Source of the DNA: Eledone cirrhosa
Taxonomy: Eukaryota
DNA: 64,000 nt
Reading direction: 5' to 3'
NCBI GenBank assembly: GCA_964016885.1
Contig: OZ024742.1
Location: 24,304,001-24,368,000 of the forward strand
Shown here: positions 23,091 through 58,177 of the stretch, piece after piece
Numbering within the stretch: the stretch's first letter is position 1
Layout of the letters: every line of letters begins with the position of its first letter
Notes under the pieces: generated by a model
Databases searched by the model: none
What the model was told of the DNA's origin: nothing
The model's input: the letters and a program-made list of their open reading frames with translations, nothing else
Made by a program: the position numbers and the translations under genes

Positions 23091-23134
<44 letters not shown>

Positions 23135-25617: not shown

Positions 25618-26450
25618 AGTCGTTTGGAAGCCTCGACAATGCTATTGCGTAAATCTCCGGGTAACAAGATCCGGTGGTGGAGAGAGAGATGTAAGTGGGT
25701 GTACGTTGAGATGCGTGGTGTGTATAAGATGTGTAGAAGAATGAAGAGAAGAGTATAAAGGATAAAATAAAAATAACAACACAAGAGAGAGTTACCTTGG
25801 GAGAGATTTAATAGTCCCTATATATTTCGGATTCACATCCATCAACTGGGGGTTTTTTTCCGGGGTGGCGGAAAGGTTGTCTGTCGGACAGGTGCGAAAC
25901 GCGTCCTCCGCTGTTTGTTGTTTTGAATATCTGAGGTATTCGGCAGAGCGCGCGTGCGCGTGAAATGGAGTCGGTCGGGCAGAGGTCAGCGGCCGAGTGA
26001 GGGAGTGGGGTGGCGCTAGCTGTCATTCCATTCTCTGCCTGTTTGTTAAATGTTACTGTGTATGTGTGTGCGTGTGTGTGTTGTTGTCTCGCTTGAGTGT
26101 GTGTGTGTGTGTGCGTGTGTTGTTGCCTTGTTCCTCTGTATTGGCAGTGCAGTATGTTCGTATGGTGGAATGCTACTGTGTGTGTGTGCGTGTGTGTAGT
26201 TGTCTCATTTGTGTGTGTGCGTGCGTGTGTTGTGTGTTGCTGCATCGTTTGTTAACTTAAACCAGCCATCTCATTTCGCTTCTCTCTGATCGGTTGTATA
26301 TTTGCGGTTGCTGGCGTTTGATAAAAAGCGCTTCCTTGATACGTAACGTGCCGACGTTTCTTTCAGTCGCTAGAATTGTGACAATGGGCCTTCCGTCTTT
26401 GTTTCCGCATTTGTCTATGTGTTTCCGGAAAGACGAGGCCCTGGTTTTAT

Positions 26451-27558
26451 TGCTTCGGGCTCACCACCACTGACATCCACCAACTCCTATCCATCGTCGT
26501 CGACACTTAGGATTCCTTGACCAAACATACCAACAAACCTCGGGATTTCCCAAGGGATCAAGCCTATCAGCGAGCTCTTACATGGACAACCTCGAACGCA
26601 AGGCACTCAACGCCTGCCACCCCAACACCGTAGCCTTTTTCTCAAGGTACGTGGACGATATCCTCATCCTCACATCTTCCCAAGACACGGCGAACAGAAT
26701 CCATGAGACGTTCAACAACACGGACGAGAACATTGACTTCAGTGTTGAACACCCCAACGAAGACGGGTCACTTTCCCTCCTCGACTTCCGAATCAACATC
26801 ACGGAACAGGGAAGGATCCACTGCAACTTCTACCGAAAGGCAGCCTGCAGGGACCTGTTCATTCACTACAAGTCCGCCCTCCCTAACAGTGCCAAAAGGG
26901 GATACATCACGAACGAGATCGCCGAATAAAAAACAGATGCAGCGATCCCGCGAGTGATGTCACTCATACCAAGCGATTCCTCGAGGTGCTGGAGACGAAC
27001 GGGTACCCTACCTCGATCACAGACAGAATAGGAGACACCAGACACAAGAGAGAGAGAGGCACCCAAGGCAAGTGCTTCCTTAAAATTCCACACCTGGGCG
27101 AGAATACCACCAACGCTATCCGCAAGGCTATACGGAGGGAGGGCCTCGACATCCACCTGGCCCACTCGGGCTCCTCCCTACGAAGATGCCTCTCCAGGAA
27201 ACCCGGGAAATCTACTGACGCTTGCTCCCTCAGAGACTGCCCGATACGCCATGCGAACTGTTGCCTACGCACATACGTCGTGTATAAGATAGAATGTGAC
27301 AGGTGCAACCAATACTACATAGGTAGCACAATCCGACCTTTGCACATCCGGATCAAGGAGCACACTAAAACCAGGGCCTCGTCTTTCCGGAAACACATAG
27401 ACAAATGCGGAAACAAAGACGGAAGGCCCATTGTCACAATTCTAGCGACTGAAAGAAACGTCGGCACGTTACGTATCAAGGAAGCGCTTTTTATCAAACG
27501 CCTGCAACCGCAAATAAACAACCGATCAGAGAGAAGCGAAATGAGATGGCTGGTTTAA
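26451..27558 (+). pseudogene. PLE RT (RYVDD, LSLLDF) plus C-terminal GIY-YIG endonuclease, frameshifted
   Basis: ORFs 26582-26929 and 26986-27558. VVYKIECDRCNQYYIGSTIRPLHIRIKEH..EALFI..PQIN. Confidence 0.9.
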
Positions 27559-27907
27559 GTTAACAAACGATGCAGCAACACACAACACACGCACGCACAC
27601 ACACAAATGAGACAACTACACACACACAGTAGCATTTCACCATACCAACATACTACACTGCCAATACAGAGGAACAAGGCAACAACACACGCACACACAT
27701 ACACAGTAACATTTAACAAACAGGCAGAGAATGGACTGACAGCTAGCGCCACCCCACTCCCTCATTCGGCCGCTGACCTCTGCCCGACCGACCCCATTTC
27801 ACGCGCACGCGCACTCTGCCGAATACCTCAGATATTCAAAACAACAAACAGCGGAGGACGCGTTTCACACCTGTCCGACAGACAACCTTTCCCCACCCCG
27901 GAAAAAC

Positions 27908-29444: not shown

Positions 29445-32400
29445 AATATAAGATCAAAAGATGGTTAAAAGAGTTCCAAGTATTTTTTATGCCCATTTCA
29501 AATACAAATATCATCATGGGATGATATCTGCGTTCACATCAGATAAAATAGGGAGACACGATATGAAGCTTAAAAAACACTTGTGAGCAGCGAAGTTTTA
29601 AATCAACATATGAACAAATAAAGTAAGATGGATATATGAGATTGGGAAAAAATGAGGGGGGGGTAGGAAAAGGTAAGGAAGAGGAAGAAAGAAAATAAAG
29701 GATGGTGGCCGAGGAGTATAAGAAGGAAGGATGAGAGAGGAGGAGAAATGAGTGATAGAGAGAGAGAGAGAAAAATAGGCTTTACAATTGAGAAAACATT
29801 GGCTCACAGAGAGAAATTAAAAAAACCGTTGGAAGATAATAGATAATTTTAAAAGATTTTGAAATTAAGAGTTAATGAGGTTTATGGCTGTTGATGTTTA
29901 TGATTGAAGAAAAAGGAATAGTATTAATTTAGGTTTATGTATTGAAGGGTTTAATAATACGTGCGAAAAAAACAAGAATTTATTAATATGTATTTTTAAA
30001 ATAAAAATATTAATGATATTAAGGAGATAATGTGAAAGAAGGAGAAGAATAAAATGAGTTATGAACTTAGAGGAATTACTTAGGGTTTAAGTTTGTTTTT
30101 ATGTATTGTAATATGTAAAAGTAAATAATAGGTTTAAAACAAGCACGGAAGGAGAGAAGAAAAAAGAGAATTTAAGGAAGAAAAAATATCTAACGTAAAA
30201 AAGTGTATGTTTACAAAAATGTTCTAATGGTAATATTATTAAATATTAAAAAATATATAGTTTCTATGGCCAATAATATGAGGAAAATGTAAAATGTAAA
30301 ATGTTGTAGTGAGTAATAATATGAATTTAAAAGTAATTGGGAAGTAAAGGTTACAGATTAAAGATTAGAAATTAAAAAAGAAAAAAAGAAAGAAAGGAAA
30401 AAGGATAAAAAAAGAGAGATAGGGTATCACAACGATATAGAGTGAGTATTGTATAATATAATATACTGAAATAATGTAGAAAGATGGGTATATTTGTAAA
30501 AGATATAAAAGCCTTTGAGAAAAGAAGATTTTAAACTACTTAGGTATTGAGATATTAGCTGTATACTGTATGGAATGTTCTATGGGATTTATGCAAGCAG
30601 AGCGAAAATAAATCCGTACGTCTATTTATTATAGAATTAAAATTAGATATAATGGTAAATTTCTCGGCTAGGCCAATTTCTGCCTGGATAGGGAGGAATT
30701 CAGGTAAGGAAAGGCGTAGCAAACCTTACTCCAAGAGATGTTATAGTTAATATTTTTGTCTTTTAAGGACAATATGAGTTCCGAGAGTGCCGTGTTAGTT
30801 CTTTTAAGTTGGTATTTAAAAGACGATTTGTGATTATAAAATCTTGCTTTAAAGGAAGTGGAAGTGGAACCGAAATAGGTAAAAGATTTAGTACCAGTTA
30901 TAACCTTACATTCATACACTAAGTTTTTATCAAGACATTGGTTATTAAGAGGACATTTAGTTCTAACAGGGCAATTACAATTACGATTAGAGAAATTAAC
31001 AGAGTTATTAACAAGTGACCTAGTATTATTTATAGAAGGCATTGGATTGGAGAAGTTATTTACGATAGGAACTATAGTTTCCTGATTTAGATTGGTATTA
31101 TGAACATTCAACGAAGTTACGTTTGACGTCGTATTTAAATTTACCTAGAGTTAATATTGACGTCGGGTATTATGACGCTCAGTGCTGGATAGATGTAATT
31201 TATTACTTAATATTTTATTATTGTGTTTAGAGATAATGTTAGAGATGTTGGAAGTGGTGGAATAAGAAAATTTGATTGTATGTTTGTAAAATATTTTACT
31301 ATAGATATGCGAGGGAGGGAAGCATTTATCTAAGGCCCTAAAGAATAGTTTAGGAATATTATTAGTGATAGATAGAGAAAAAGGAGCATTATGCCAAATC
31401 ATATTTTTGTATCTAGGTCTTTTATTTAAGTTATTGGAGTGTTCATAATTAACTATTTTACTATAAGTCCTTCGATGATTGGTTGCTTTACTGTATTTAA
31501 TTTTATTAGGATAGCCGGCTTTGGAAAGCGCATTATTATAGTAATTGCCATTAGCGTCGAAGATAACTTTATTAGAGGATAGATTAGATATTCTTTTTTC
31601 AATATTACTGACTATAGCATTTTTAACGTTAGTGGGTAGTTAGATTTAAAATTAACATAATTTAGATTCTCATTGTTTTTATGGTAAGGGTAATATAGGC
31701 CAGTGTCAAGATTAAGGGATATATCTAAGAAGTTAGCTAGTTTGACTTTGTTATCAAATTCAATTTTAAGGTTATGGTGCTTAAATAGATCAAGTATATT
31801 GTTCTTAATAATATTAAGGTTAACTAAGTTACAGTTCAAGATAGTAAAAAGGCATCGTCAGGATAAATTCCACCGCGAAGTTGAGGAATTTTCCGATTTA
31901 AAGAATTCAGAATAAAGATACCAATCAAATCAGTCAATTGCGATGAATCGGAAGCACCCATTGTGATATCAAAATTGTTGGAAGTATCAGCTCTAGTCCA
32001 ATATTCATTGTTGAATTCCAAGATAGTTTTTCTTGCGGTGAGAATGATGTAAAATTCATCTGTGGTAATGTCAGAATATTTAAATGCGAAAGATAGAGCG
32101 TTATTGAGGAGTGAAGGCGAAATGGAAGAATAGTAACTGGCAATGTCAAACTGAATAAATGTTTGTTTGTTTTTATTATTCAGGTAATTGAACCAGCCAA
32201 TTACTTCAGATGTACCAATCCAAACATTTAAGTTAGAAATAGAGCAATTAGAACGAACCTGTGGGATAATTCTATCCAAGATGGATTTACTAACAATCCC
32301 CAGATCAAATTTAGAAGGGGCGATTAGTCTAACAGGCAGTTCCGTTCGAAAGTTACTTTTATGATCCTTGAGATTTATCCTCGGAGTTCTTGAGAAGAAT

Positions 32401-32452
32401 GGTTCGGTCTTTTTCTCGATGCCAAGTTTAGACATAATCTCAGAAGCTTCCA

Positions 32453-32457
<5 letters not shown>
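29445..32457 (-). mobile_element. 5'-truncated degraded PLE (probably Hydra-clade type)
   Basis: RT FIQFDIASYY..DITMGASDS..GGIYPDD. EN CNCPVRTKCPLNNQCL..VYECKV..TYFGST..FKARFYNH. Decayed HHR at the 3' end. Confidence 0.85.
29481..29550 (-). ncRNA. decayed hammerhead motif at PLE 3' end
   Basis: tattttat CTGATGT, long stem II (gcagatatcatc/gatgatatttgt), GAAA tgggca TA aaaaata. Confidence 0.5.
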
Positions 32458-32509
<52 letters not shown>

Positions 32510-32512
<3 letters not shown>

Positions 32513-35500
32513 AAAATAAACCAAAGAAGCCTTCAATACATCAAAAGTCTTTATTAGCCAACAATGTTTCGTCCTATTAAGGACTCATCAGGGCAAGTAA
32601 AGCTACAAGATGCACTATCGGCCAATACAAGCCAAAAACTCAGAAGAATATGGAGTATACATCTATTAAAGCTTAGGAAAGATATCAAGGAAAAGTTGGC
32701 TAAGATTAAGAGTGAGCAGTTACAAACATAGATATAGACCAAATAGCAAGGAAGTGATTAACATGTTGAACCCACATTGCAAATATTGTATAATGCAAAA
32801 ACTTGAAACACAAATGGTAATATAATGCGAGAATTACAGTACGATATAGAATATAATATAATATAATAGATGGTGATAATAACAAGCTTAATATATGAAT
32901 ATATATATATATATACATATACACATTAGTACAAACACAAACTAACACTTATTAAGTATTTAAATATATATATATATATATTGTTTACAGTATAATATAA
33001 TAAAGATAAAAATAAAAATAAAATATAATATATAATTCCCTGTCAGTGTGCATAAACAATATAAAAACATTATAATAACATTATAATAACAATATTATAA
33101 TATATTATAATATATTGGCATCAAAAGATATACAAAATTACATCATACATATAATTCAAGGTTAACAAATAGTATAAAGTTTTACACAGGGTAAGAAAAA
33201 AATCATATAGAACTAAATTGTGTTGAAAAAATTCTGTTGAAAAAATATCTATACCATTGTAACAAATACACGGCGGTCAAGTCATTTTACATTGGCATAA
33301 ATATTACCAAAATATCACAAAATATTACAAAATATAACAGAGCAGTACCTCAAATAACAGACATATATTAAAATCTATAATACGATTACATAAAAATGAT
33401 ATGATGTAACAACGTTAATATCAAATAGCAAACAGAGTCTAAGGAAATGCTTAATATATATATTTACATGGTTGACATACACAGACATATATTAATGAAA
33501 TTACATGAATCAGACAGACAGCGTGTGGTAGTCAAAAATAAAAAAATAAACCGATGATCGAAAAACAAAAACAAGTATATTTACTTAGGTCTCACAAGTG
33601 GTTAAGTAAAAGAAAAAAGATAGAAATGTAAACCGGAGAATTGACTAGAAAACCTTTTTAAATTAATTAATATTAAAAGTATTTAAAATACATATTTAAT
33701 CACTTCAAAATTGGCTAGAGTTTAAGTCATCAAAATCGTATAAGTTTAAGATATCTCAATAAAATTATCAAGAATAGAGTAAAATATGTTCCTTTCAGTC
33801 GAATAACGTTATCAAATAAAAGGACTCTAAATAGAACTATGGTAGACCAATGGGAACAGAAAGAAGAGAGGTTATGGAGGATAGGAAGGAGCATAAAAGT
33901 AAAATCAATATATTATATAATATCATAAAAAGGAGCATAAAGGTGAAATTTATATATAGTATAATAGAAGGGGCGGATATTAAGTGTGTAGAGGAGAAGG
34001 TTCATTAGTTGAATGAGACTCCAAACAAAGTATTTAATAAGATATAAACTCATAAGGTGTTAGTAGTGAAACTATAATAATGCTTAAGAAGATAGATAGG
34101 GTATGGTAGCCAAAAGACTATGGAAACTAAAATCGAAAAGCTGTAAAAAACTAATAATAATAATGATGATGGTAATCAAAATGAACCTAAACAAAAAAGA
34201 TAAGGAAATATAGCAGCTAATGGATACGATTTAAACTACCAGAACTTTTAGGTCTATAATAGAAAAAAAGAATTAGAAATGGCATGGGGCAGGAAGAAAA
34301 TATCTCAGACGTTCTATTAAGCAAAACTTCCCTAGAGAAAATTATAGAGTGGGTCTCTAGGATACAGAGATTACAGAATTTAGTGTGTGTTGATAGGTTA
34401 TTAGAGCTTGCTACTATACGCCAATTAAGGCTATATGGCATACCAGCCCCTTTAAGATCCCAGATATGGTGTGCTAAAGAAGTAGAGTTCTTAAACTTAA
34501 CATGCTTAAAATTAGAGATATGAGAATTAAACCTAGTTTTAAAAGTATTAGATGTGGAGCCTATATATGTGCTATTAGAAGAATTAGTCTTAACTTCACA
34601 AGCATAAACAATGTTCCTAGAGAGGCAGTGACCATTTAAAGGGCAGTTAATACTCTACAGTTACACTTCCGGGTGCTATTGACCGGCTGAATGAGTGATG
34701 CATCACTCCTAGGGTTATTATAAGATAAGGTCTGCTCAGGTGGTAAGGCATTAATGGATCTATCAAGACTAGTAGTACGCAAAGAGGAGTAGCTGTCCCT
34801 AATTTTCCTATTGTTAGTGCTAGCTAAATGAGAACTAATATTAGGGGTGGTAGAGAATGATAGTTTAATTACATTTTTATTAAAAATACCATGGTATTTA
34901 TTAGTAGGAGGGAAATTTTTCTCTAAGATAGAAAGGAAAGAGCTAGGGATGTTAGTTAATACTTCATGAACATAAAGCCGGTTAAAATAAGTATTGAGTC
35001 TCCTCCTATTTCTATCCTTACCAACTCTACCGTTATCCAGTATCCCACTAATAGGATCAGGATTACTACGAGGACTAGTTGAAACAACATTATTAGAAGC
35101 AGCCAAAACCCTATTGAGTCTCCTTCTGTTTCTACCTTTAGTATATCTACTGTAATCTGGAATCATATCAATAGGATTAGGGTTACTACCAGGATCAGTT
35201 GAAACAACACTATTAGAATTAGTAAAAACATTACCACTGGTTGAGCGATCAGAGTGCCTAACTTGTTCCCTAGAACTAATCCCGAAAAGTGTACCATTAG
35301 ACTTACTATTACGATTACGGTAGCTTAACCTATGGATGGGTTCGGATACACCTATGGGATTTCTACGATTCTTATGCTTTCTACTCCCATTCATGGCCAT
35401 ATTATGGGATATCATGTTATTATTATTATGGGTAAACGGAGACTTTCTAAGGTTGTTCTCATTATAACGTATTTTACCAGAGTAACCAGAGTTAGCTAGG

Positions 35501-37439
35501 GCATTATTATAGTACTCTGCATGTGAATTAAATATTCCTATATCCTTAGAGAGTGTGGAAATTCTATTAGATACACCGTTAATTATAGAGCTAATCATAG
35601 ATTTAGGGTGGTTAGAATTGGGATTAACATAAGAGAGTATCTCATTTGGCTTATGGAAGGGTTTATAACTATTAGTGACCAAGTCCAAAGTCACATCTAA
35701 AAAGTTGACCGCTCTATCATTTCTATCAATCGTGATCGAAAGGTTAAAATTTTAAACAAATTTATAAAGTTTCTTCCTATTATGCTCAATGTTATTGGTG
35801 CAAGAGTTTATCACAAACAATGCATCGTCACAATAAAGTCCGCCTTTAAGGTGCGGAAAGGTAACATACTGTTCATTTAGGAGGAACAGCCCAACAAGAT
35901 CAGTTACCTGGGCCGAATCACTCGAACCCATTGTAACGTCGAAGTTGTTGGGTGTGTTTTTACGCGTCCAAAGTGTATCCTCAAATTTGATGATAGTCCT
36001 ACGGGCTGCTAGTATAACATCAATCTGCGGTCGTGTAAGGCTAGAGACTCGCATGGCCATAATTAAGGTTTTATTAAGGAGGATAGGTGAAATCGACGTG
36101 TAATAGGCATCAATATCAAACTGGATAAACCTACTAGACTCAAGTTTATTAATACCAGAGAACCAATCTATAACATCCTTAGTGTTCCCCCATAGATTAA
36201 AATGAACCTTTTCCCTAACGACTGGTATAATCAGGTCAAGGATTTTCTTACTAATTATAGCTATATCAGACTTAGAAGGACTAATGAGTCTAACAGAAGG
36301 ATTACTAATGAAGTCTACCTTATGATCCTTAAGAATGAATCTCGGTTCCCTAGGGTAATATGGCTGGGTATACTTATCAAGGCCCAGGTCCGAAACTATC
36401 TTGAGACTCTCATTATTGATATGATCCAAATTATCTTGCGTTGTCTTTTTGTAATTTTTATGCAGCTCCTTATAAATAAAATTACGGTAAGCATTGTAAT
36501 CCATAGAGTAAAGATTCTTAGTCTTGTCAGCCGGGACAAGAATAGACTTATTCCCTTTAAAATCCTTAACGATATTCTTAAGTTTAGTCTGGAACCTGTC
36601 GAACTTATTATAGTTCCCATATCTATTATACGGCCTATACTTTATATTTTTGGCAAGAGAAAGTAAATCATTCTCAAAATTATCTAATAGAACATTATGC
36701 TGTGGGCTCTTATAAGTGTTGAAGCCAGAGTTTAAGTCATCAAAATCGTATAAGTTTAAGATATCTCAATAAAATTATCAAGAATATAGTAAAATATGCT
36801 CCGTTCAGTCGAATAACGTTATCAAATAAAAGGACTCTAAATAGAACTATGGTAGGGGTCTGTATGTTATAATGTGTGAGCAGAGATTGGAACGTTACAT
36901 TTTTGTTTAGATTTATAGGATGAAGTTAAAAAATTAATCTTTAATATTAACATTATAAAATTAAAGAAATTAAAAAATTGAAAGTTAAACAGTTTAACAT
37001 TTTTAATGTTGCTGGGTTTAAGCAAAGAAAGCGTCTTTTACGAAGAAACTTAAATTTTATTATAGAGTAAATATTATGTCTTTGTTTAGCCGTCAAACAA
37101 CATGCGGCGACCACAGGCTTGCGCAGCCCATCCACTCCGAGTGATATCGCGTAGCGAAAGATATGGAAATCAATTTTTCCGAGCACTCTAGGAATTTATA
37201 ACAGGCTTCAGGTGCGCCAGCGGGAGGTCAGCCCGCATCGTTAGGCCATCCTTGTACAAAACCAGTACTATTCATTTACGTGGGAGGCGAGGGGGGGGGG
37301 GGGGGTTGCTTAAGTAGAGGGAGGCGTGATACATCTAATAGTTATGATTAGATCTGTAATTTAAAGGTACTATATGGCGGTCAAAAAACCGGCTGCGCGC
37401 CGGGCCCCTGAGACGAATCGAACCACTCCGAGTAGTTTC

Positions 37440-37481: not shown

Positions 37482-37482
<1 letters not shown>

Positions 37483-40400
37483 TTCGTTTCTGAATTTGTT
37501 TAGCAAGATTCTTTATCAGAAAAGGTGTGTTGAAACCGATATTGTTATACTTTGGGAGGGTCATGTTGCCAATAAGAAATACACTCACCAGTTGCTTTCA
37601 CTTCAATTTATTATAATAAATTTATAAATTTAGGAATTTATAAATTTCTGGTTGGTTGGTTGGTTCCACAACCAGATAGTTGTTTATATATTGTCAAAGT
37701 TATTTCGTCACATATTCTGTGACCTCTTTAGTGACTGGGGATTCTTTTCTTTGTTTTTGTGCCTCTCCTTTGTTCTGTCCTACGTCATTTTGTTTCTGTG
37801 TGTGTGTTGTGTGTTGTGTGCTCAGTCTGCGCATGCGCCACATCCGGGTGTCTGTGTGTGTTTATATTCATTTATTTATTTGTTTATTTACATGTTACCG
37901 GTTGGTTATTTGTTCTATGTACGTGTGTGTTTTCATTTTGTCCTTAATTGTAAGTTGTGATGTTGCTGTTCCACTCATATTTTCTATTTAATTTTGGCTG
38001 TAATTCATTTATGTTTATTGCCTCTGTGATTTGTCTAAACATTGCGTCTTTTCTGTGTGTAGATTCTATTTTTATTTCTATGTTCTCTAATTTACCCTTA
38101 TATTCTATTTTAGCATGTTGTTAGAGTACAGATGATTCTTTACTATCTTGAAGGTCTCGCCAGTGTTCATTTATCCGTTCCCCTATACTACCAGCTGTCT
38201 CACCTATGTACACTATATTTTTATCTCTACATTGTCCTTCAGTACATCTTATGCTATATACTACATTTCTAGTTTTACAGTTAATATGGGGGCTTAATTT
38301 ACAGATTATACATTTCTTATCTATACAGAGAGGTCTTTAAAAAAGGTATGTATTGCTAATAAGTGTTTTTATGGAGGTACCTGGTCTTTCTACTATCTTA
38401 ATATTGAGTTCATGTTTATCTAGGGCCCTTCCAAATTTGTAAGCTAATTCACCTCTAGGGGTTGTATCGATGAACATTACACTCTGGTATTTATTGCTAT
38501 CATATCATGAGTTTATTCTATTAACCTTATTCCTAGTTCTTTCTATTCTATTCCTAAATTTGCTCCTATACAAGGGGCAGGTCCCATTTGTGTCATTATT
38601 TACCATTTTTTCCCATTTGGTTCTGGCTCCTCTATACACTCTGATATTATCTCTCTGATTGTAACCAGAGAACTGCATACGGTGGATGAAGTGTTGTATG
38701 TGTCTCTCTAGTTCTTCGGGGTTGCACATGCGGGACACGTTTCTCATTACCCGTACCAAATCTGCAATCAGTATGTTGATTTTGGTATGGTCCAAAACAG
38801 CTTAGTTTCGGTGGATCAGATATTTGGAAGTCATGGGTTTGGCATAATGGGAATGGAGGATTTGTTATTTGTTATTAATGGTATCTAACCAGAGCTGTGT
38901 GTCCAGTACAGGTAATCGATGGTTCGGGTGTTTGCTTGGATAGTCTATAGTAACTCTAAAACTCTGGTGGATGGGGTTAGCTATTCGCTGGATGCTTTCC
39001 ATTGTGCTTTTCTCTAATTCCTGACAGTTCTCTAGTGTGGGTGTTTTAATTACGATGCTTATATCATCAACGTAGCGGGAGTACATTATCAGGGTTAAGG
39101 GGTCTTCTAATTGTTCTTTAAGTTTAAGTTTAGGTCTATTGTCCCACCATACCATGAATAGGTTAGCTATGTCACCTGCAATGCTAACACCAATGGCTGC
39201 TCCCTCCTCTTGGGCATATATTTTTCCATTAAATTTGAACATATGTTCCTTAAGGGTTAATTTTATGCTGGCTCCCACCGCATGTGCAATCATTTTCTTT
39301 AGTTCATCGTGGTTTCGGGAGTCTGTATGGCTCTGGTTCACCCGTTCCATCTATCTGTGTGGGTTTTCTTGGCCATTGAGGTAATGGTAGCTGGTCTGCC
39401 TCTTGCTGGTCTTGTAGGGCACAGGTTGCTAAGTTCATATGTGTCTAGATATATTATTACTATAGATAAGTTTAAGTAGGAGTCCCAGCTCACTGGTATC
39501 AATCCCACGGAATTCAACATTGCTCTCACTGATAATTTCTACGCATTTTTCCACAGCAAAATCCACGTCGATAGATGGATAGAGGGACACAACATCCATA
39601 CTACCTATTATGCAGTTTGTTAGGTCGCTAGATCGGTTACTCTCGCCGATTCTGCTGAGGAGGTCCTCCGTGCTGTCACATACATCTGGGGACAATTCAA
39701 TGATGCGGCGTATGATCAGGGAGAGGAAGTAGGACAGTCTGTAGTTACTAGCAATGCTAGCTCTACAGACTGGCCGTGTTGGTGGTCCTGTGACAGGGTC
39801 ACTGCTCGTTTTATGGTCTTTTCGAAGTCCATACAATGCTAGCACGTCATTGTTCCAGGCCTGGAAGTTGTTGGCAGTCCTTTTGTTGGGCTGCATTATA
39901 TTTGTCCACATCATCATATGGGCATTGAGGGCTTTTTCTCTATCCTCATGCTCTTGTGATTTTACTTCTCTTGTGTTAGCGATGTGGGGTTGCATTGCTT
40001 GGATGTAGTTTGGCAGACTGTCAACCGACATTCTGCCAGACTTGTGTGTTGGAAAGCATGCTATCTCTCCATTACGCGAGCGCTGCATGAGCTTACGTAA
40101 GCCATTTGCAGATTTTTCTCCCAGTTGCTGGGCCTCCATTCTATTATCTTTCTTGCTATACTGTTCTATAATATTTCTAAGTTTAGATCTAGCTATACTA
40201 AATTGTGTTTCTGTTTGTTCATCGACCTGCGACGGCAATTGCGTGTATTTGTTAAAAGCTAAAGTGGTGGCGTGGACTCGTCGCAGGTCGAACGACTTAT
40301 CGGAGGGATTATAAAAAGTAGAGTTCCAGGCTGCTGCTTTATGTGTACTAGTGCTATTGTTATTGTTAGTTGTGTTGTTTCTGTTTCTTTTTCCACCAAC

Positions 40401-41492
40401 AGCCTCATGGTTGTTTCTATGTCTCTCATTATTACTCCTGTCTCTTTCCTCTGGCTCATTTTTATTATCTACTCTATGTTGTGTGTCTGTGTGTTCGTCT
40501 TGGTTATTTTCTCTGTCCATAGTCTCCCTTCTCCTTTCAATCCTATTACCCTCCCTTATTTCTGTGCTACTGTCATTACCTGTTTTCTGTGTCTGTGTGT
40601 TTATTAAGATTGTGGTGGGGGTGAGAGGCATTGAATGTGTGTGTGTTTTTGTTGTTGTTGATGTGTGTTGTTGTTGTTGTCTCCGTGTATGTTATTATTG
40701 TTGTGCGTGTTGTTATTGTTGTTTGTGTCGGCGTGTCTGTTGTTGTTTCTGAGTATGTTATTATTGTTGATGTGTGTGTTGTTGTTATTGTTGTTTGTGT
40801 CTGTGTGTCTGTTGTTGTTGGGATGTGTGTTGTACATGTGTGTGTGTGTGTGCGTATGTTGTTACTTTTGTTTTTGAGGCTCCAACGTAATTTTGTAATT
40901 GATTTTTCTATTTCTGACAAGCATTTAATCATATTTACCTTATTCAATGTGGCATACTTAGGCAGCAGTTGTAATACAGATAATTCATCAGAGTCGACCG
41001 TAGTGTTGCTGTATATATTTGTGTTGTTGTTGTTGAATTCATCTGTTAATGAGATGTCGGCCATATTTATACCGTCAATTTTGTCGGGATATATATTGAT
41101 ATCCTCTAAAGTATCTTAATTTAGTTTTATCTGTTTGAGCCACTTTAGTTTCTTGTTAAAGTGCTTGTCACATTCTTGAACAATGTACTGTTCTGCAGGA
41201 CATATAAGGTTTATAAATATTAGTTTTTCTCTTGGTGTGGTGAGCTTAGTTTTTTCGTGTATTAGGTTACGCTTATGTTTTTGCTTGATGATTTAATTCT
41301 CTATAAATCTTCTTTTTTATGTTTAGAATTAGTGTTCGTTTTAGCTTATCTGCTTGCTTTTTGGTGAGCTGTAATTTTCTTACATCGGTGTTGATGGTGT
41401 TGGTGTAAACTCGGGACGAGGCACATTCTTTTATGAAGCGTAGTTGTCGAGATGTTATTGTTTTTCGTAGACAACAGAACATGGTGGTTTTC
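37482..41492 (-). mobile_element. near full-length frameshifted PLE (family PLE-c) with 3' pLTR
   Basis: [48 protein letters not shown] at ~38150-38300. (AAC)n expansion at 40640-40870. HHR at 37693-37735 with core CTAAAGA. Confidence 0.92.
37781..37850 (-). promoter_or_regulatory. putative pLTR promoter (ETS-like, NRF1-like and YY1-like motifs)
   Basis: Minus strand: ccggatgt, gcgcatgcgca, then aaaatgacg (aagatggtg in the 56.2-kb copy). Motif matches only. Confidence 0.4.
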
Positions 41493-41527
41493 AGTACATA
41501 TGTATATATATATATACGTATATATAC

Positions 41528-41597
<70 letters not shown>

Positions 41598-41885
41598 TAA
41601 ATTATGTCCTTAGAATCATTTGATAAGATATATACTCAATTTCCTCTCCCAATTAGCATAATCAACCACACAAAAAAATTAAACCAGGCTATAAGATTAA
41701 AAGGCACACGTGAAGAAATAATAGATAAATAAACGATATCCATTTATTCGCGATCAGCAGCCATAGAATATTTACCCATCATTTGAATAGCACGTGGAAA
41801 TCGATTAAATATATCGTCAACCATATACAATTAGGTATAAATTTAAATTTAGAAGAAAAAATTCATATACACATACCAGGATTAC

Positions 41886-41966
41886 GTTTCTACCCTTAGG
41901 GTTTCGTTCGCTTTCGGAAATATCCTATCAAGGATAAATTCTCGAGCTTCGAACTCATCAGGAAGC
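41886..41966 (-). ncRNA. type I hammerhead ribozyme, canonical core
   Basis: gcttc CTGATGA gttcg..tatcct-tgat-aggata..cgaac GAAA ccc-taa-ggg TA^gaaac. Confidence 0.9.
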
Positions 41967-42609
41967 AAAGTCACTTGGACAAAGATATTTCCTAAATGAT
42001 CCCCGCCAGAAACGAATTCAAAATGGCTAAGAACATCTGCTTTAAGTTTAAGTTTAAGTCTACTGTCCCACCATACCATGAAACGTGGCAGTGGTCAAGT
42101 CAGAAAAAATGTGATTGGTGTCTTACGGCTAGTAGGCTGGTTGCTAGAAAGCGCAGCCTAATATTGCCCAAATTGCATCTCAACGTTATGGGAGATTATC
42201 AAATATAAAGATTTACATATACACAAACTAGACAGAGTTATAGATATATTTTTGGCAACCATTCACGATGTGGCTCAATGATGAATTAATAAATTAAATA
42301 ATCAGAGCAATATACTATAAATTATGTCCTTAGAATCATTTAATAAGATATATATACTCAATTTCCTCTCCAAATTAGCATAATCAACCACACAAAAAAC
42401 AAATTAAACCAGGCTATAAGATTAAAAGGCACCTGTGAAGAAATAATAGATAAATAAACGATAGCCATTTATTCGCGATCAGCAGCCATAGAATATTTAC
42501 CCATCATTTGAATAGCACGTGAAAATCGTTTAAATATATCGTTAACCATACACAATTAGGTATAAAATTAATGTTAGAAGAAAAATGCATATACACATAC
42601 CAGGATTAC

Positions 42610-42690
42610 GTTTCTACCCTTAGGGTTTCGTTCGCTTTCGGAAATATCCTATCAAGGATAAATTCTCAAGCTTCGAACTCATCAGAAAAC
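42610..42690 (-). ncRNA. type I hammerhead ribozyme, canonical core
   Basis: gtttt CTGATGA gttcg..cgaac GAAA ccc-taa-ggg TA^gaaac. Confidence 0.9.
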
Positions 42691-42920
42691 AAACTCACTT
42701 GGACAAAGACTTTTTCCTAAATGATCCCCACCAGAAACGAATTCAAAATGGCTAAGAACTGTGACGTGGCAGTGGTCAAGAATATGATTGGTGTGTTACG
42801 GCTAGTAGGCTGGTTGCTAGAAAGCGCAGCCTAATATTGCCCAAATTGCATCTCAACCTTATGGGAGATTATCAAATATAAAGATTTACATATACACAAT
42901 ATATATATATATATATATAC

Positions 42921-48178: not shown

Positions 48179-48408
48179 TAATATTAACTATATTAATAAA
48201 TGGAAAATATCTTTATAATACCATATTTATTTTATTATACATATTTCAAGGACACAAAATTTTAGTGTGAGTTCATCAGATAAAATATAATATTTGGTGT
48301 ATTTTATCTGATGAGAGCACACTAAAATTTTGTATCCTTGAAATACGTATAATAAAATAAATATTGTATTATAAAGATATTTTCTATTTATTAATATTGT
48401 TAATATTA
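48179..48408. repeat. 230-bp imperfect palindrome with outward-facing hammerhead motifs (48300-48359 plus strand, 48228-48287 minus strand)
   Basis: tattttat CTGATGA..GAAA tacgta TA^ataaaata. 8-bp stem I, palindromic stem III, imperfect stem II. Confidence 0.8.
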
Positions 48409-48497
48409 ATAATACTCCAGATAAATTTGTAGAGTGCTTCTAATCTGTTATAAAATTAACTTTGTTGAATAATAATCAACAAACCATATAACTCATT

Positions 48498-49612: not shown

Positions 49613-52600
49613 ATCATCATCACCGTTTTACGTCCGTTCTTCCACGCTAGCATGGGTTAGACGGGTTGTCCTGTTGTGGGCAGTGTCTGGTCGGCTGACC
49701 ATGCCTTGCTCATACAGGAACTGATCTGGCTTGATTTCTACAGCTGGATGCCCTTCCTAACACCAACCTCATTTACAGTGAGTGCTGGGTGCTTTTTCGT
49801 GGCGCCTACACGTCCACTTTACAGTGTGGGCTGGGTGCTTTTTTGCCGTGGCACCTCCACGACCACCTTGCGGTGGGGGGAGTGGGGGCATATTGTTTAT
49901 ATGCTTCAGCATGTACCCATGGGAGGTCGGGTACTCTGTATTACTGCGTGACGCCAGAAGTCACGGTCGTGTGTCATTGACTTTGAGAGGTGTAGTTGGG
50001 TAAGGTCGGCTTTTATCACCTCATCCCAAGTCATCTTGGGTCTCCCCACTCCGCGGTTTCCATCAACTTCTAGTGCTCTGCACCTTTTTATGCAGCTGTC
50101 ATCCTTCATACGCATCACATGTCCATACCAGCGTAACCGCCTCTCCTGCACGCAGCATTTGATTCCTCTTATGCTCAGTCTCTCTCTCAATTCCTTTATG
50201 CTTTGTTGTTCACGTATATTACTGTTACACATCCATCGGAGCATGCAGGCTTCGTTTCTCTCTAATCTACGTAAGTCTTCCACCTTCAGCGCCCAGGTCT
50301 CACTACCATGCAACATCGCTGTTCGGATACACGCATCATACAGTCTGCCTTTCATTCTGAGGGAGAAGCCTTTTGCAGCTAGCAGTGGTAGTAGTTCCCT
50401 AAACTTCTTCCATCCCGTTCTTACCCTAGTTATTGTACCTTCTGAACACCCACCTCCGTTGCTAATTCGGTCACCTAGGTAGCAGAAGCTGTCTACTGTT
50501 TCTACAGGGCCCTCCCAGAGATTGGTGGTACTTGTTTCCTGTGGCTGTTTGCTTGCTGTTTCAGCACAGCTGCTGCATGTGAATCCTACATTCTTAATTA
50601 AGCTTCCTGAGATCCCGCTACATCTCTTGTGTACCCATTGTTTGCATTTGGGGCAGAGAATGGAGTTCCTACCTACACCTTTCCTACATACTGAGCAAGG
50701 CCATTTCCCTGAGGGGATCTGGGTTCTGTTTTCTCGTCTACTTACAAGGACCTTAGTCTTTGTCATGTTGACTTTGAGGCCCTTTCTCTCTAGTCCCTGC
50801 TTCCAGGTTTGGAATTTATTCTCTAGTTCTACCATAGATTCAGCTATGAGTGCGAGGTCATCAGCATACAGGAGTTCCCATGGGCATTCGGTCTTAAACT
50901 CCTCCGTTATTGCCTGCAGGACTATGATGAACAGGAGAGGGCTAAGAACAGAGCCCTGGTGGACCCCAACCTGTACGCTAAATTCCTCGCTATACTCATT
51001 GCTAATCCTAACTTTGCTGACTGCTCCCCTATACATGGCTTGTACCGCTTTCACAAGCCATTCATCTACTCCTAGTTTTCTAACAGCCCACCAGATTACT
51101 GCACGTGGAACTCTGTCAAAGGCTTTCTCAAGGTCGACAAATGCCAAGTAGAGTGGCTTACTTTTAGCTAGGTACTTTTCCTGTAATTGCCTCACAAGGA
51201 AGAGGGCATCAGTGGTGCCTTTCCCTGGTACAAACCCAAATTGCATCTCGTCTATATTCACCCGGTCCCTAATCAGCTGTGCTATAACTCTTTCTGTTAC
51301 TTTCATGACCTGGTCCATCAACTTTATACCTCTATAGTTTCCTCTATCTAGTGCATCGCCTTTACCTTTGTAGCAGTTGACAATGATGCTACTGCACCAA
51401 TCTTTTGGTATGGCCCCTTCTAGTATTACCTGGTTAACGATACGTGTGGTTATAGTGTGACCTACAGACCCAGATGCCTTCAGCATCTCGGCAGCTATAC
51501 CCGATGGACCGGTTGCCTTCCCTATCTTCATATCTCTGATTGCCTTACTTACTACGCTGCCGCTGACTTGTACTGCTGGTCCCTCTATAGGGTCTACGTG
51601 GGGTAGGGTCTCTTCTTCCCATGCATTCTCCTCATTTAGTAATCTATCATAATGACTCTTCCATGCATCTTTCTTCTCAGCACTTGTGAGGGCAAGCTCA
51701 CCTTTATCATTCCGGATACACTTCTCTCCAATGACATCACAACTATCTCTGACACACTGCCTCGCAATCTTGAATACCTCCTGTTTCTGGTCCTCACGTT
51801 GTAAAACATGCTTGAATTTTCTATCCTCTGCTTCCCTCCTAGCTAAGTATACTTGTTGCCTAGCTTCCCTCTTGGTCTCTATGTAATGTACCCTGCTCCC
51901 CCCGTTCTTCCATTCTTTCCATGCCTGTCTCTTGGCCTTGACTGCTTCATCTACCTTATTGTTCCACCACCAAGTCACTCTCCTCCTGCTTGAGGTCTTA
52001 CTCCAGCCACAAACCTCATCCGTCGCCTCTAGTAAGTTATTTTTTAGGAACTCCCAGTTCTCTTCTACGTTAAATGTCTCTATCTGTTCTTCTTTACTGT
52101 CGTAGGCGTTGAGTAAAATATCTTTAAATCTGTTACTGGTTGAGGGGACTTTCAGCTTCCAGATCTTTCTTCTCCAGGTTGGCCTCTGTTTCCGGGTTCG
52201 TCTAGTTCTGACCGTGAGGTCGCTGACAACTAAGCTATGTTGGGATGTACATTCCTCAATAGGGAAGGCTTTTGTGTTTACGACCGTCCATCTGTCACGT
52301 CCTCTGATGAGGATAAAATCTAACTGACTAGAGTGCTCCCCTGATCTATAGGTGATCAGGTGGTTGTCGGATTTTTTAAAGTTTGTGTTACATATCGACA
52401 TGTCATTGGCGTCGCAGAATTCTAGAAGTCTGAATCCTTCCTCATTCCTTGTGCCAACTCCATGGCCTCCATGTACTCTATTGAAGCCGTCGCAGTGTTT
52501 ACCTACATGTCCGTTAAAATCTCCTGCAATGATTAGGAAGTCCTTGTCGTCTGTTAGAGCAGTAGTGTGTATTAGGGACTCGTAAAACCTATCCTTAAGT

Positions 52601-53232
52601 TCGTCTGGCAGCCCCGATTGGGGTGCGTAAGCTGATATTATTGTGGTAATTGTCTTATTCAGGACTAGTCTGAGTTTAATGATTCTTGCATTTACCCTGT
52701 ACACTGAGATTACTTTATCTACCCACTTGTCAGCTAATAGTATACCTACACCACCCATCCCATCGTCATTTCCCACCCAGAAATATTTGTAGCACTGGCT
52801 TTTTCCTACAAGGACTCTAGCAGACTCTCCTCTCCATCTAGTCTCTTGCACACAGCATACATCAACTTCCTTTCGCTCTAGCATTTCTACGATTTCTCCT
52901 GCTCTTCCTTTCATTGAGCCTACATTGATGGTACCAACTCGGAGTTTTGGGCATTTGTCGACACTCGTAGGGGAGGGTCTCTGGGTTGGCGCTTCACGTG
53001 GGTGCTTGGTAGCTCGCAGATTCATATTTCATCTATTGATTCAGAGTTGCTCAAATGTATTCTCAGCTCATCCATCCATAACGTTGGGAAAATTGAGGGC
53101 TAGAAGAACAGTGGTGGTGGGGTAATGGCAGGGTGTGTTGGGATGCGCCAGAGGAGGAGAGAGTTAGTTAGGCAGGTAGTAGCAGCAGCAGTGGAAATGG
53201 CATGCTAGGTTTGATTGGTCGAATAGGGTTAT
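49613..53232 (-). mobile_element. apparently full-length RTE non-LTR retrotransposon (RTE-a)
   Basis: Single intact ORF, ~200-nt leader, ~290-nt 3'UTR and (GAT)n tail. Confidence 0.95.
49906..53025 (-). CDS. RTE ORF: AP endonuclease plus reverse transcriptase with inserted PHD-type finger, 1039 aa
   Basis: APE motifs GTINV, VQETRW, SAYAPQ, GDFNGHVG, LDFIL, SQH. RT motifs [30 protein letters not shown]4HC3 at 50566-50697. Confidence 0.97.
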   Translation of the reverse strand: MNLRATKHPREAPTQRPSPTSVDKCPKLRVGTINVGSMKGRAGEIVEMLERKEVDVCCVQETRWRGESARVLVGKSQCYKYFWVGNDDGMGGVGILLADKWVDKVISVYRVNARIIKLRLVLNKTITTIISAYAPQSGLPDELKDRFYESLIHTTALTDDKDFLIIAGDFNGHVGKHCDGFNRVHGGHGVGTRNEEGFRLLEFCDANDMSICNTNFKKSDNHLITYRSGEHSSQLDFILIRGRDRWTVVNTKAFPIEECTSQHSLVVSDLTVRTRRTRKQRPTWRRKIWKLKVPSTSNRFKDILLNAYDSKEEQIETFNVEENWEFLKNNLLEATDEVCGWSKTSSRRRVTWWWNNKVDEAVKAKRQAWKEWKNGGSRVHYIETKREARQQVYLARREAEDRKFKHVLQREDQKQEVFKIARQCVRDSCDVIGEKCIRNDKGELALTSAEKKDAWKSHYDRLLNEENAWEEETLPHVDPIEGPAVQVSGSVVSKAIRDMKIGKATGPSGIAAEMLKASGSVGHTITTRIVNQVILEGAIPKDWCSSIIVNCYKGKGDALDRGNYRGIKLMDQVMKVTERVIAQLIRDRVNIDEMQFGFVPGKGTTDALFLVRQLQEKYLAKSKPLYLAFVDLEKAFDRVPRAVIWWAVRKLGVDEWLVKAVQAMYRGAVSKVRISNEYSEEFSVQVGVHQGSVLSPLLFIIVLQAITEEFKTECPWELLYADDLALIAESMVELENKFQTWKQGLERKGLKVNMTKTKVLVSRRENRTQIPSGKWPCSVCRKGVGRNSILCPKCKQWVHKRCSGISGSLIKNVGFTCSSCAETASKQPQETSTTNLWEGPVETVDSFCYLGDRISNGGGCSEGTITRVRTGWKKFRELLPLLAAKGFSLRMKGRLYDACIRTAMLHGSETWALKVEDLRRLERNEACMLRWMCNSNIREQQSIKELRERLSIRGIKCCVQERRLRWYGHVMRMKDDSCIKRCRALEVDGNRGVGRPKMTWDEVIKADLTQLHLSKSMTHDRDFWRHAVIQSTRPPMGTC

Positions 53233-55872: not shown

Positions 55873-55926
55873 TATATATATATATATATTTATATATTTA
55901 TATATTTATATATGCATATATATTTA

Positions 55927-58177
55927 TATTGTTATACTTTGGGAGGGTCATGTTGCCAATAAGAAACACACGCACCAGTTGCTTTCACTTCAATTTATTA
56001 TAAATTAAATTTATAAATTTAGGAATTTATAAATTTCCGGTTGGTTTGGTTGGTTTAACAACCAGATGATTGTTCATATATTGTCAAAGTTCTTTTGTCA
56101 CACATTCTGTGACCTTTTCAGTGACTGGGGATTCTTTTCTTTGTTTTTGAGCTTCTCCTTTGTTCTGTCCTACACCATCTTGTTTTTGTGTGTGTTGTGT
56201 ACTTAATTTGCGCATGTGCTACATCCGGGTGTCTGTGTGTGTTTATATTTGTTTATTTATTTGTTTATTTACATGTTACTGGTTGGTTGTTTGTTCTATG
56301 TGCATGTGTGTGTTTTCATTTTGTCCTTAATTGTAAGTTGTGATGTTGCTGTTCCATTCATGTTTTCTATTTAATTTTGGTTGGAGTTCATTTATGTTTA
56401 TTGCCTCTGTGATTTGTCTAAACATTGCGTCTTTTCTGTGTGTAGATTCTATTTTTATTTCTATGTTCTCTAATTTACCCTTATGTTCTATTTTAGCATG
56501 TTGGTGGAGTACAGATGATTCTTTACTATCTTGAATCTCTCACCAGTGTTCATTTATCTGTTCCCCTATACTACCAGCTGTCTCACCTATGTACACTATA
56601 TTCTTATCTCTACATTGTCCTTCAGTACATATTATGCTATATACTACATTTCTAGTTTTACAGTTAATATGGGGGCTTAATTTACAGATTATACATTTCT
56701 TATCTATACAGGGGGGTCTTTGAAAAGGGTATGTATTGCTAATAAGTGTTTTTATGGAGGTACCTGGTCTTTCTACTATCTTAATATTGAGTTTATGTTT
56801 ATCTAGGGCCCTTCTAAATTTGTAAGCTAATTCACCTCTAGGGGTTGTATCGATGAACATTACACTCTGGTATTTATTGCTATCATATCATGAGTTTATT
56901 CTATTAACCTTATTCCTAGTTCTTTCTATTCGATTCCAAAACTTTCTCCTATAAAAGGGGCAGGTCCCATTTGTATCATTATTTACTATTTTTTCCCATT
57001 TGGTTCTGGCTCCTCTATATACTCTGATTTTATTTCTCTGATTCTAACCAGAGAACTGCATACGGTGAATGTAGTGTTGTATGTGTCTCTCTAGTTCTTT
57101 GGGGTTGCACATGCGGGCCACGTTTCTCATCACCCGTACCAAATCCGCAATCAGTATGTTGATTTTGGTATGGTCCGAAACAGCTGAGTTTCGGTGGATC
57201 AGATATTTGGAAGTCATGGGTTTGGCATAATGGGAATGGAGGATTTGTTTTTTGTTATTAATGGTATCTAACCAGAGCTCTGTGTCTAGTACAGGTAATC
57301 GATGGTTGGGGTGTTTGCTTGGGTAGTCTATAGTAACTCTAATACTCTGGTGGATGGAGTTAACTATTTGCTGGATGCTTTCCATGGTGTTTTTTTCTAA
57401 TTCCTGACTGTTCTCTAGCGGTGGTGTTTTTACTACGATGTTTATATCATCAACCTAGCGGGAGTACATAATCAGGGTTAAGAGGTTGCTGTCTTCTAAT
57501 TGTTCTTTAAGTTTAAGTTTATTGTCTCACCATACCATGAATAGATTAGCTATGTCACCTGCAATGCTAACACCAATGGCTGCTCCATCCTCTTGGGCAT
57601 ATGTTTTTCCATTAAATTTAAACATATGTTCCTTAAGGGTTAATTTTATACTGGCCCCCACCGCATGCACAATCATTTTCTTTAGTTCATCGTGGTTTCG
57701 GGGGTCTGTATGGCTCTGGTTCACCCGTTCCATCTATCTGTGTGGGTTTTCTTGGCCATTGAGGTAATGGTAGGTGGTCTGCCTCTTGCTGGTCTTATAG
57801 GGCACAGGTTGCTAAGTTCATATGTGTCTAGATATATTATTACTATAGGTAAGTTTAAGTAGGAGTCCCAGCTCACTGGTATCAATCCCACGGAATTCAA
57901 CATTGCTCTCACTGATAATTTCTACGCATTTCTCCACAGCAAAATCCACATCAATAGATAGATACAGGGACACAACATCCATACTACCTATTATGCAGTT
58001 TGTTAGGTCCCTAGATCGCTTACTTTCGCCAATTCTGCTGAGGAGGTCCTCCGTGCTGTCACATACATCTGGGGACATTTCAATGATGGGGCGTATGATC
58101 AGGGAGAGGAAGTATAACAATATCGGTTTCAACACACGTTTTCAGATAAAGAATCTTGGTAAACAAATTCTGAAACG
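55927..58177 (-). mobile_element. 5'-truncated PLE-c copy with inverted terminal tip (58110-58177)
   Basis: Colinear with 37538-39731. GIY-YIG VVYSIICTEGQC..VYIGETAGSIGEQINEH. Mutated HHR at 56083-56125. Confidence 0.93.

What the first reader, a model, noticed from the sequence alone, without database searches (positions are those of the whole stretch)
42035..42082. A piece of the PLE-c reverse transcriptase gene captured inside the ribozyme repeat
Seen: unit 1, but not unit 2, has ~48 extra nt (ctttaagtttaagtttaagtctactgtcccaccataccatgaa; MVWWDSRLKLKLK on the minus strand). It matches the PLE-c RT at ~39116-39158 (MVWWDNRPKLKLK) and, less completely, 57506-57541. It lies in the same sense as the HHR. 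Inference: an RT template switch between the PLE mRNA and the repeat RNA. This would be a direct footprint naming the autonomous partner, which also sits immediately adjacent (37482-41492).
Basis: partly seen in the sequence, partly recalled or inferred. Interest (0 to 1): 0.75.

Follow-up and report, generated by a model that had tools for sequence, protein, structure and literature searches.

The report
Stray Penelope scrap; partner likely Hydra
One copy of a common ribozyme-bearing repeat carries a 43-base scrap of a neighbouring jumping gene, likely patched in during repair of a DNA break; the scrap does not identify the repeat's helper, because the repeat's ends match a different (Hydra-type) jumping gene, which is the likely helper.

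Summary
The insert is real. At 42035-42082, 4 nt of a 679-nt hammerhead retrozyme are replaced by 5 filler bases plus 43 nt of the PLE-c reverse-transcriptase gene, in the same sense. It is private: one filled site against 1,075 empty ones. There is no microhomology and no target duplication. The 43 nt equal the majority state of about 2,300 PLE-c sites; the adjacent copy differs at two positions. Adjacency to PLE-c is not enriched (5 of 40 retrozyme loci vs 11 of 100 control TA tracts). The 'names the partner' claim fails. The retrozyme's two fixed ends (about 110-nt tail) and its bulged start hairpin match an abundant Hydra-clade PLE with long open frames (about 100-nt tail, same hairpin). 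They do not match Neptune-type PLE-c (57-nt tail, no hairpin). Best reading (0.6): an end-joining patch made from a PLE-c shard, perhaps from the neighbouring insertion, since PLE-c joints carry 35-70-nt shards. An RT double jump remains possible (about 0.3 in all). No reads of this individual were available. Earlier notes of this scan reported Hydra tail hairpins, Hydra-linked retrozymes and another retrozyme/Penelope chimera on other DNA of this genome.

The parts
42035..42082 (-). Whole insert, 48 nt, replacing 4 nt (TGTG) of the retrozyme at unit position about 441-445; lies about 74 nt 5' of the hammerhead core, outside the ribozyme
42035..42039 (.). 5-nt filler with no significant template
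   Evidence: best match in PLE-c is 8 nt; 153 of 576 control fillers reach 8 nt or more
42040..42082 (-). 43-nt shard of the PLE-c RT coding region, identical to the family majority
41593..42312 (-). Retrozyme unit 1 (679-nt family, first-copied unit, starts at the family's main fixed end in a TA tract)
42313..42899 (-). Retrozyme unit 2 (positions 1-593, truncated), no insert, has its own private 8-nt deletion; 26 differences from unit 1 in 576 sites, 4 shared derived changes
41885..41967 (-). Type I hammerhead motif of unit 1 (CUGAUGA, 49-nt stem II arm, GAAA, short stem III, UA cut site); stem I weakened in this copy
   Evidence: Rfam listed no hammerhead among the 150 matches shown
42609..42691 (-). 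Type I hammerhead motif of unit 2
42203..42312 (-). About 110-nt tail between the family's two fixed ends (unit positions about 570 and 680)
   Evidence: 86 of 112 outer ends at positions 1-6 and 14 at 564-576
42273..42308 (-). Bulged hairpin GCTCTG..CATTGAGC at the start of the tail, shared with the Hydra-clade PLE
37482..41492 (-). Adjacent PLE-c copy, nearly one full unit (4,011 of about 4,045 nt), Neptune-type, ORF broken, hammerhead core mutated near 37731
39116..39158 (-). Segment of adjacent PLE-c homologous to the insert (2 mismatches, probably gained after insertion)
55926..58114 (-). Second, truncated PLE-c copy; 57506-57541 is a poorer match (6-nt deletion, T-type lineage)
32510..36856 (-). 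Broken copy of the Hydra-clade PLE whose tail signal matches the retrozyme; hammerhead core at 32591; this copy ends at the near end, without the tail
41493..41592 (.). TA microsatellite between PLE-c and the retrozyme (shared target)

Best explanation
One copy of a 679-nt hammerhead retrozyme lost 4 bases and gained 5 filler bases plus a 43-base piece of the PLE-c reverse-transcriptase gene, likely as an end-joining patch of a DNA break, and the retrozyme family itself is likely copied by a Hydra-clade Penelope-like element rather than by PLE-c. Shown: the anatomy of the junction, its privacy, the donor family, and the two end signatures. Inferred: (a) units 1 and 2 came from one reverse-transcription run primed in the TA tract; (b) a break in unit 1, during or soon after integration, was joined over a shard of PLE-c cDNA, RNA or DNA; (c) the shard may come from the neighbouring PLE-c insertion 550 nt away, which is of similar age, but over a thousand other copies fit equally; (d) the bulged hairpin is the signal that Hydra enzymes recognise.
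For: Junction: 4-nt loss, 5-nt filler, no duplication, and no shared bases with the majority donor at either side. The same features are described for non-classical L1 insertions (PMC1920257, passages) and repair patches (PMC5110952, part 1 of 4). Short fillers also occur at this family's own arm joints. Out-of-place internal PLE-c shards of 35-71 nt sit at PLE-c joints or truncation ends in 6 distinct loci (L124/L035, L145, L075, L134, L188, L254), so such shards exist. Partner: retrozyme ends lie about 110 nt apart. Hydra ends lie 50-65 and 151-168 nt after the ribozyme cut, with the hairpin in 9 of 9 tailed ends. PLE-c ends lie 57 nt apart and a full unit has no such hairpin. The hairpin starts 5 nt after the retrozyme's near end, is intact in 31 of 49 distinct copies and arose in 0 of 200,000 shuffles; genome-wide it has 16,351 sites against 34 for the reversed control. 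Ages are similar: units 1 and 2 differ at 4.5% (about 2.3% each), and the adjacent PLE-c has 2.3% private changes.
Against: The insert is in the RNA sense, as a template switch requires (a 1 in 2 chance under repair). No other orphan internal PLE-c shard was found in 1.64 Mb of loci or by the flank-exclusion pattern (4 hits: this one and 3 inside PLE-c insertions), so a background rate of repair capture is not demonstrated. The break site is not TA-like, so PLE endonuclease cutting does not explain it. All other shards seen lie at PLE-c's own joints, not inside a foreign element. The retrozyme has no extended nucleotide homology to this Hydra family (best hit 19 nt, E 0.1).
Confidence: 0.6

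Rival explanations
1. Double template jump by the retrozyme's own (likely Hydra-type) RT: it left the retrozyme RNA, added 5 untemplated bases, copied 43 nt of a bystander PLE-c RNA and returned 4 nt further on. The insert would then record RT behaviour but name a bystander, not the partner.
For: Same sense as both RNAs; present only in the first-copied unit; double jumps are reported for LINE RTs (PMC2104539, abstract); internal deletions with 0-8 nt of filler in other copies (L117, L121, L155, L164) could be RT skips.
Against: No microhomology; needs two jumps and a return to within 4 nt on the same RNA; the published tripartite chimeras join three different transcripts in series (abstract); no second case in the other copies surveyed.
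Confidence: 0.2
2. One reading: PLE-c's RT mobilised this copy and switched to its own mRNA and back, so PLE-c is the partner, at least for this event.
For: Donor family and sense fit; both families target TA tracts and are of similar age; PLE-c is adjacent, and its source lineage probably had the majority 43-mer when it inserted.
Against: The end signature is Hydra-type, and this copy starts at the family's standard end; no homology to PLE-c apart from the insert; adjacency not enriched (5 of 40 vs 11 of 100, Fisher p 0.78; vs 21 of 321 pooled tracts, p 0.19); single event.
Confidence: 0.12
3. Assembly or consensus artefact: a chimera of two high-copy repeats.
For: Both parts are high-copy, and no reads of this individual could be laid on it.
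Against: The 5 filler bases and the 4-nt loss belong to neither repeat; unit 1 is collinear on both sides and carries its own private changes on both sides of the insert.
Confidence: 0.04
4. RNA-level recombination: a broken retrozyme RNA was ligated to a PLE-c RNA fragment before reverse transcription.
For: Same sense; retrozyme RNAs are proposed to be ligated by host enzymes (PMC7229834, passages).
Against: A circular template with the insert would put it in both units; the filler is unexplained; no source locus with the insert exists.
Confidence: 0.04

Closest known systems
Non-classical (endonuclease-independent) L1 insertions, Sen et al. 2007 (PMC1920257, passages read)
   Same: Short internal retroelement piece (34 bp upward there, 43 here), target deletion (5 bp upward there, 4 here), filler DNA, no target duplication
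   Different: The donor is a Penelope-like element; microhomology was common in those loci and is absent here; the recipient is itself a retroelement copy
Class 2 templated sequence insertions / DSB patches (PMC5110952, part 1 of 4 read)
   Same: A patch templated from elsewhere, with micro-deletion and untemplated bases
   Different: Shorter than the 73-414 bp experimental inserts cited there; RNA or DNA origin not resolved here
Tripartite LINE chimeras by double template jump (PMC2104539, abstract read)
   Same: Several templates joined in one insertion, same sense
   Different: Here the sequence returns to the first template 4 nt on, and there is one case only
Metazoan non-LTR retrozymes (PMC7229834, passages; bioRxiv 10.64898/2026.07.22.740005, parts 1-3 of 5)
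   Same: Non-coding tandem unit with a type I hammerhead; PLEs proposed as mobilisers
   Different: The unit is 679 nt with a long stem II; the link to a PLE here is a 14-nt bulged hairpin and tail geometry, not pLTR homology as reported for Xenopus
Hydra-clade PLEs (PMC8557442, passages and section 11)
   Same: The candidate partner has DKT, CxCX5C, a C-terminal endonuclease region, a canonical hammerhead and TA targeting
   Different: Here ORFs reach about 900-960 aa with a 3' UTR of about 1.5-2 kb and a tail of about 100 nt; the passages read describe elements under 3 kb and 30-40 bp tails for other PLEs

Membership tests
Repair-type templated insertion (NCLI / class 2 TSI) | No target-site duplication | tested here: met
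Repair-type templated insertion (NCLI / class 2 TSI) | Target-site deletion and untemplated filler | tested here: met
   4 nt lost, 5 nt filler; template search not significant
Repair-type templated insertion (NCLI / class 2 TSI) | Internal fragment lacking the donor's normal priming end | tested here: met
   the shard is from PLE-c position 1635-1677; normal ends are at 1 and 58
Repair-type templated insertion (NCLI / class 2 TSI) | Microhomology at junctions (frequent, not universal) | tested here: not met
   0 nt on both sides against the majority donor; 1 nt on the right against a rare variant (L061/L141)
Repair-type templated insertion (NCLI / class 2 TSI) | Pre-insertion allele at the orthologous site | not testable with these tools
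   no relatives or reads of this locus were available
RT template-switch chimera | All parts in the same RNA sense | tested here: met
RT template-switch chimera | Recurrence with the same partner or at preferred sites | tested here: not met
   1 of 80 in the interval; none in the other copies aligned
Metazoan non-LTR retrozyme (recipient) | Non-coding tandem unit with a type I hammerhead in each unit | tested here: met
Metazoan non-LTR retrozyme (recipient) | Self-cleavage and circular RNA | not testable with these tools
   no RNA holder listed; needs an in vitro assay
Non-autonomous partner of PLE-c | Shared terminal sequence or end signature | tested here: not met
   no homology beyond the insert; tails 110 vs 57 nt; hairpin absent from PLE-c
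Non-autonomous partner of a Hydra-clade PLE | Shared end signature (tail length, start hairpin, TA target) | tested here: met
Non-autonomous partner of a Hydra-clade PLE | Extended pLTR homology | tested here: not met
   best hit 19 nt, E 0.1, against the one Hydra family tested; other Hydra families not tested
Non-autonomous partner of a Hydra-clade PLE | Mobilisation in trans by the protein | not testable with these tools
   needs biochemistry
Neptune-type PLE (PLE-c) | C-terminal GIY-YIG with CX2-5CxxC linker and CCHH | tested here: met
   translations read against PMC8557442 passages; weak RVT_1 hit; no tree against reference clades was built, so Neptune versus Nematis is not settled
Hydra-clade PLE (32510-36856 family) | DKT, CxCX5C linker, canonical hammerhead, (TA)n insertion | tested here: met
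   both protein motifs in the longest ORF of 17 of 20 loci; hammerhead after the ORF in 16 of 20

The most novel reading that the evidence does not exclude
The locus records two Penelope clades meeting at one microsatellite break: a Hydra-type RT copying the retrozyme jumped onto a Neptune-type PLE-c RNA and back, or took up a shard of the PLE-c insertion beside it. And a 14-base bulged hairpin, present at over 16,000 sites in many unrelated repeat families, is the code that assigns retrozymes to Hydra enzymes, so partners can be read from tails rather than from captured scraps.
Probability: 0.3. Interest if true: 0.65.

Novelty: new member of a known kind. Interest (0 to 1): 0.35.

Why it matters
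Which enzymes move animal retrozymes is still a proposal in the papers read (PMC7229834; bioRxiv 10.64898/2026.07.22.740005). A captured RT fragment looks like direct proof, but here it points to a clade whose end signature does not fit, which is a useful caution. The end signature gives a sharper, testable assignment: a Hydra-clade protein should prime at two sites about 100-110 nt apart around the bulged hairpin, in the assay that exists for the anole Poseidon element (PMC11167929). The insert itself is a single, probably neutral scar.

Tried and rejected
Rfam scan of the window: no hammerhead family among the 150 of 203 matches shown, which were almost all microsatellite-driven miRNA hits; the motif was found by pattern instead. 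Repeat finder on the whole window was swamped by TA tracts. Sequencing runs: no RNA holder listed. Contigs X1-X4 and RAD reads X9-X11 show the empty joint and PLE-c flanks but no listed record across the filled junctions; they also lack this copy's private bases and their tables were cut, so this is no evidence either way. Insert ancestral and deleted in unit 2: rejected. Adjacent copy as best donor: rejected on sequence. Adjacent copy excluded as donor because its T variant is inherited: tested and not supported; about 227 sites share one of its two changes, but the copy groups with C-type copies on a long branch, so it stays a possible donor at birth (chance of 0 changes in 43 nt is 0.23-0.37). 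Filler templated from PLE-c near 41348 (8-nt match): not significant. Insertion survey of unit positions 114-286: 0 hits, denominator not measured. Orphan-shard pattern: by my estimate it samples only about 0.1% of possible 43-nt shards, so its blank does not bound the background usefully. The fold of the circular majority unit puts the site in a partly paired arm: uninformative. Classifying 30 hairpin loci by upstream ORF was weak, because the 1.5-kb flank is shorter than the Hydra 3' UTR: 1 of 30 had a sense Hydra hit, 0 of 30 a PLE-c hit, and 20 of 30 had a TA tract within 130 nt downstream.

Full report
Observation. Aligning the two tandem units shows that unit 1 has 48 nt at 42035-42082 where unit 2 has TGTG. 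The last 43 nt match PLE-c at 39116-39158 (41 of 43) and 57506-57541 (33 of 36) and read MVWWDSRLKLKLK on the minus strand, the sense of both the PLE-c ORF and the hammerhead. The first 5 nt are filler. The window lies in a 3.0-Gb genome rich in TA tracts; earlier scan notes call it an octopus, which I did not check.

The insert is derived and private. None of the 28 other copies fetched first has it. The empty junction occurs at 1,075 sites. A 101-nt query across the insert has one candidate in the genome. Among copies with two flanking anchors intact, 1 of 80 has a 13-173-nt insertion in that interval, and it is this one. A second interval gave none (denominator unknown). In the 98 unit-centred loci examined, gaps of 10 nt or more were microsatellite growth or local duplications, apart from two pieces of a short interspersed repeat with target duplications (L015, L172; SINE-like is my label). 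A foreign piece in one copy therefore does not by itself mark a partner.

Donor. The 43-mer occurs at 2,318 sites with up to 2 mismatches; the first 100 listed are all exact, and all 30 fetched have PLE-c flanks. Of the 29 copies nearest to the adjacent element, 26 match the insert exactly and 3 differ at one base; none shares the adjacent copy's two changes. One of those changes recurs in a minor lineage (227 sites within 1 mismatch), but the adjacent copy groups with the majority type on a long branch. It is thus a possible donor at its birth, no better than over a thousand others. Against the majority donor neither junction has microhomology, and there is no target duplication. The filler's best template (8 nt) is reached by 153 of 576 control fillers.

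Recipient. The unit is a 679-nt non-coding element with a type I hammerhead pattern (cleavage untested), inserted in TA tracts as one unit plus a variable part of the next, sometimes with an inverted second arm. Of 112 outer ends, 86 fall at positions 1-6 and 14 at 564-576, a tail of about 110 nt. Two fixed initiation sites flanking a tail are the PLE hallmark shown biochemically for the anole element (PMC11167929, parts 1-2 of 4). Units 1 and 2 share 4 derived changes and differ at 26 of 576 sites, consistent with one copying event followed by about 2.3% drift each (inference). The adjacent PLE-c has 80 private changes in 3,458 sites, 2.3%.

Adjacency. Both families land in TA tracts. Young PLE-c lay within 600 nt of 5 of 40 retrozyme loci, 11 of 100 TA tracts in 20 evenly spaced control loci and 10 of 221 other tracts (Fisher p 0.78 and 0.19). 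Young PLE-c ends were in 5 of the 20 control loci. In the neighbouring cases inspected, the two elements are separated by TA repeats in every orientation.

The partner question. PLE-c has a C-terminal GIY-YIG with a CX4CX2C linker and CCHH, Neptune-type by the features in PMC8557442 (passages). Its unit is about 4,045 nt, it has its own hammerhead, and its ends lie 57 nt apart. It shares no homology with the retrozyme apart from the insert. A scan of all fetched loci for hammerheads showed other families with tails of 90-110 nt. One is the 3' end of the element at 32510-36856, whose protein has 30,778 first-look candidates and many 850-960-aa open frames, with the DKT and CxCX5C marks of the Hydra clade. 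In 20 fetched loci, its ends lie 50-65 nt (10 ends) or 151-168 nt (9 ends) after the ribozyme cut, and all 9 tails begin with a bulged hairpin GCTCTG..CATTGAGC. The retrozyme's tail begins with the same 14 bases around a longer loop, 5 nt after its near end. The motif is intact in 31 of 49 distinct copies, arose in 0 of 200,000 shuffles and is absent from a full PLE-c unit. Genome-wide it has 16,351 sites against 34 for the reversed control, with many different loops, and 20 of 30 sampled sites lie within 130 nt of a TA tract. I looked for a hairpin after reading earlier notes, so the idea is not independent, but these counts are mine. The signal points to the Hydra clade, not to one family, and its function is inferred.

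Mechanism. A 4-nt loss, filler, no duplication and an internal fragment match non-classical L1 insertions (PMC1920257, passages) and repair patches (PMC5110952, part 1 of 4). PLE-c insertions do produce shards of this size: out-of-place internal pieces of 35-71 nt sit at joints or truncation ends in 6 distinct loci. Against repair as the explanation: in 1.64 Mb the window's shard was the only internal one in a foreign context, and its sense fits a template switch. Double jumps are reported for LINE RTs (PMC2104539, abstract). Public reads were of other individuals and do not bear on the locus.

Novelty. The scar is a new instance of a known kind. Retrozymes as non-autonomous PLE passengers are proposed in PMC7229834 (passages) and bioRxiv 10.64898/2026.07.22.740005 (parts 1-3 of 5). 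My searches (listings only, except the papers named) showed no paper on a PLE fragment inside a retrozyme or on a Hydra tail hairpin; supplements were not opened. The scan itself had noted the Hydra tail hairpin, Hydra-linked retrozymes and a retrozyme piece at a Penelope junction on other DNA of this genome; a sequence look-up for this 679-nt family found nothing. Interest 0.35: the headline claim fails, and the value lies in the corrected partner assignment and the test it allows.

Noticed in passing
genome-wide; window 42273-42308 and 23861-23894 (minus): The bulged hairpin GCTCTG..CATTGAGC occurs at 16,351 sites against 34 control, with many unrelated loop sequences, mostly 80-130 nt from a TA tract; other hammerhead families have an ACTC..TWGAGT version.
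   Followed up: partly
L124/L035, L145, L075, L134, L188, L254: PLE-c insertions carry 35-71-nt out-of-place internal shards and short fillers at arm joints or truncation ends.
   Followed up: partly
window 22390-23171: Near-perfect palindrome made of two short PLE-c 3' arms.
   Followed up: no
window 48230-48480: Another hammerhead (core at 48308, plus strand) in a short inverted-arm element with an ACTC-type tail hairpin; relatives are common near TA tracts.
   Followed up: partly
window 49906-53028 (minus): Uninterrupted 1,040-aa frame that looks like an RTE-type LINE (endonuclease plus RT; label recalled, not tested), with several truncated relatives in the window.
   Followed up: no
window 30668-32540 and 26187-27628: A second, truncated Hydra-type ORF directly downstream of the first, and a further PLE family with inverted arms and a weak GIY-YIG hit.
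   Followed up: no
L171 and L111: Other loci where PLE-c and the retrozyme sit in tandem in one TA tract, about 30 nt apart, without any shard.
   Followed up: yes
L015, L172, L145: A short interspersed repeat has inserted with 6-15-nt target duplications into two retrozyme copies and one PLE-c copy.
   Followed up: partly
L024, L027, L131, L148, L183: Older subfamilies of the 679-nt unit at 67-85% identity; in L131 and L148 the tail region is better conserved than the body.
   Followed up: no
G000:C12:17.03-17.49 Mb: Seven retrozyme matches at roughly 60-kb steps, suggesting a large segmental tandem duplication.
   Followed up: no
window 41962-41966 and 42780: Unit 1's hammerhead stem I is weakened by private changes, and unit 2 has a private 8-nt deletion close to the site where unit 1 has the insert.
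   Followed up: no
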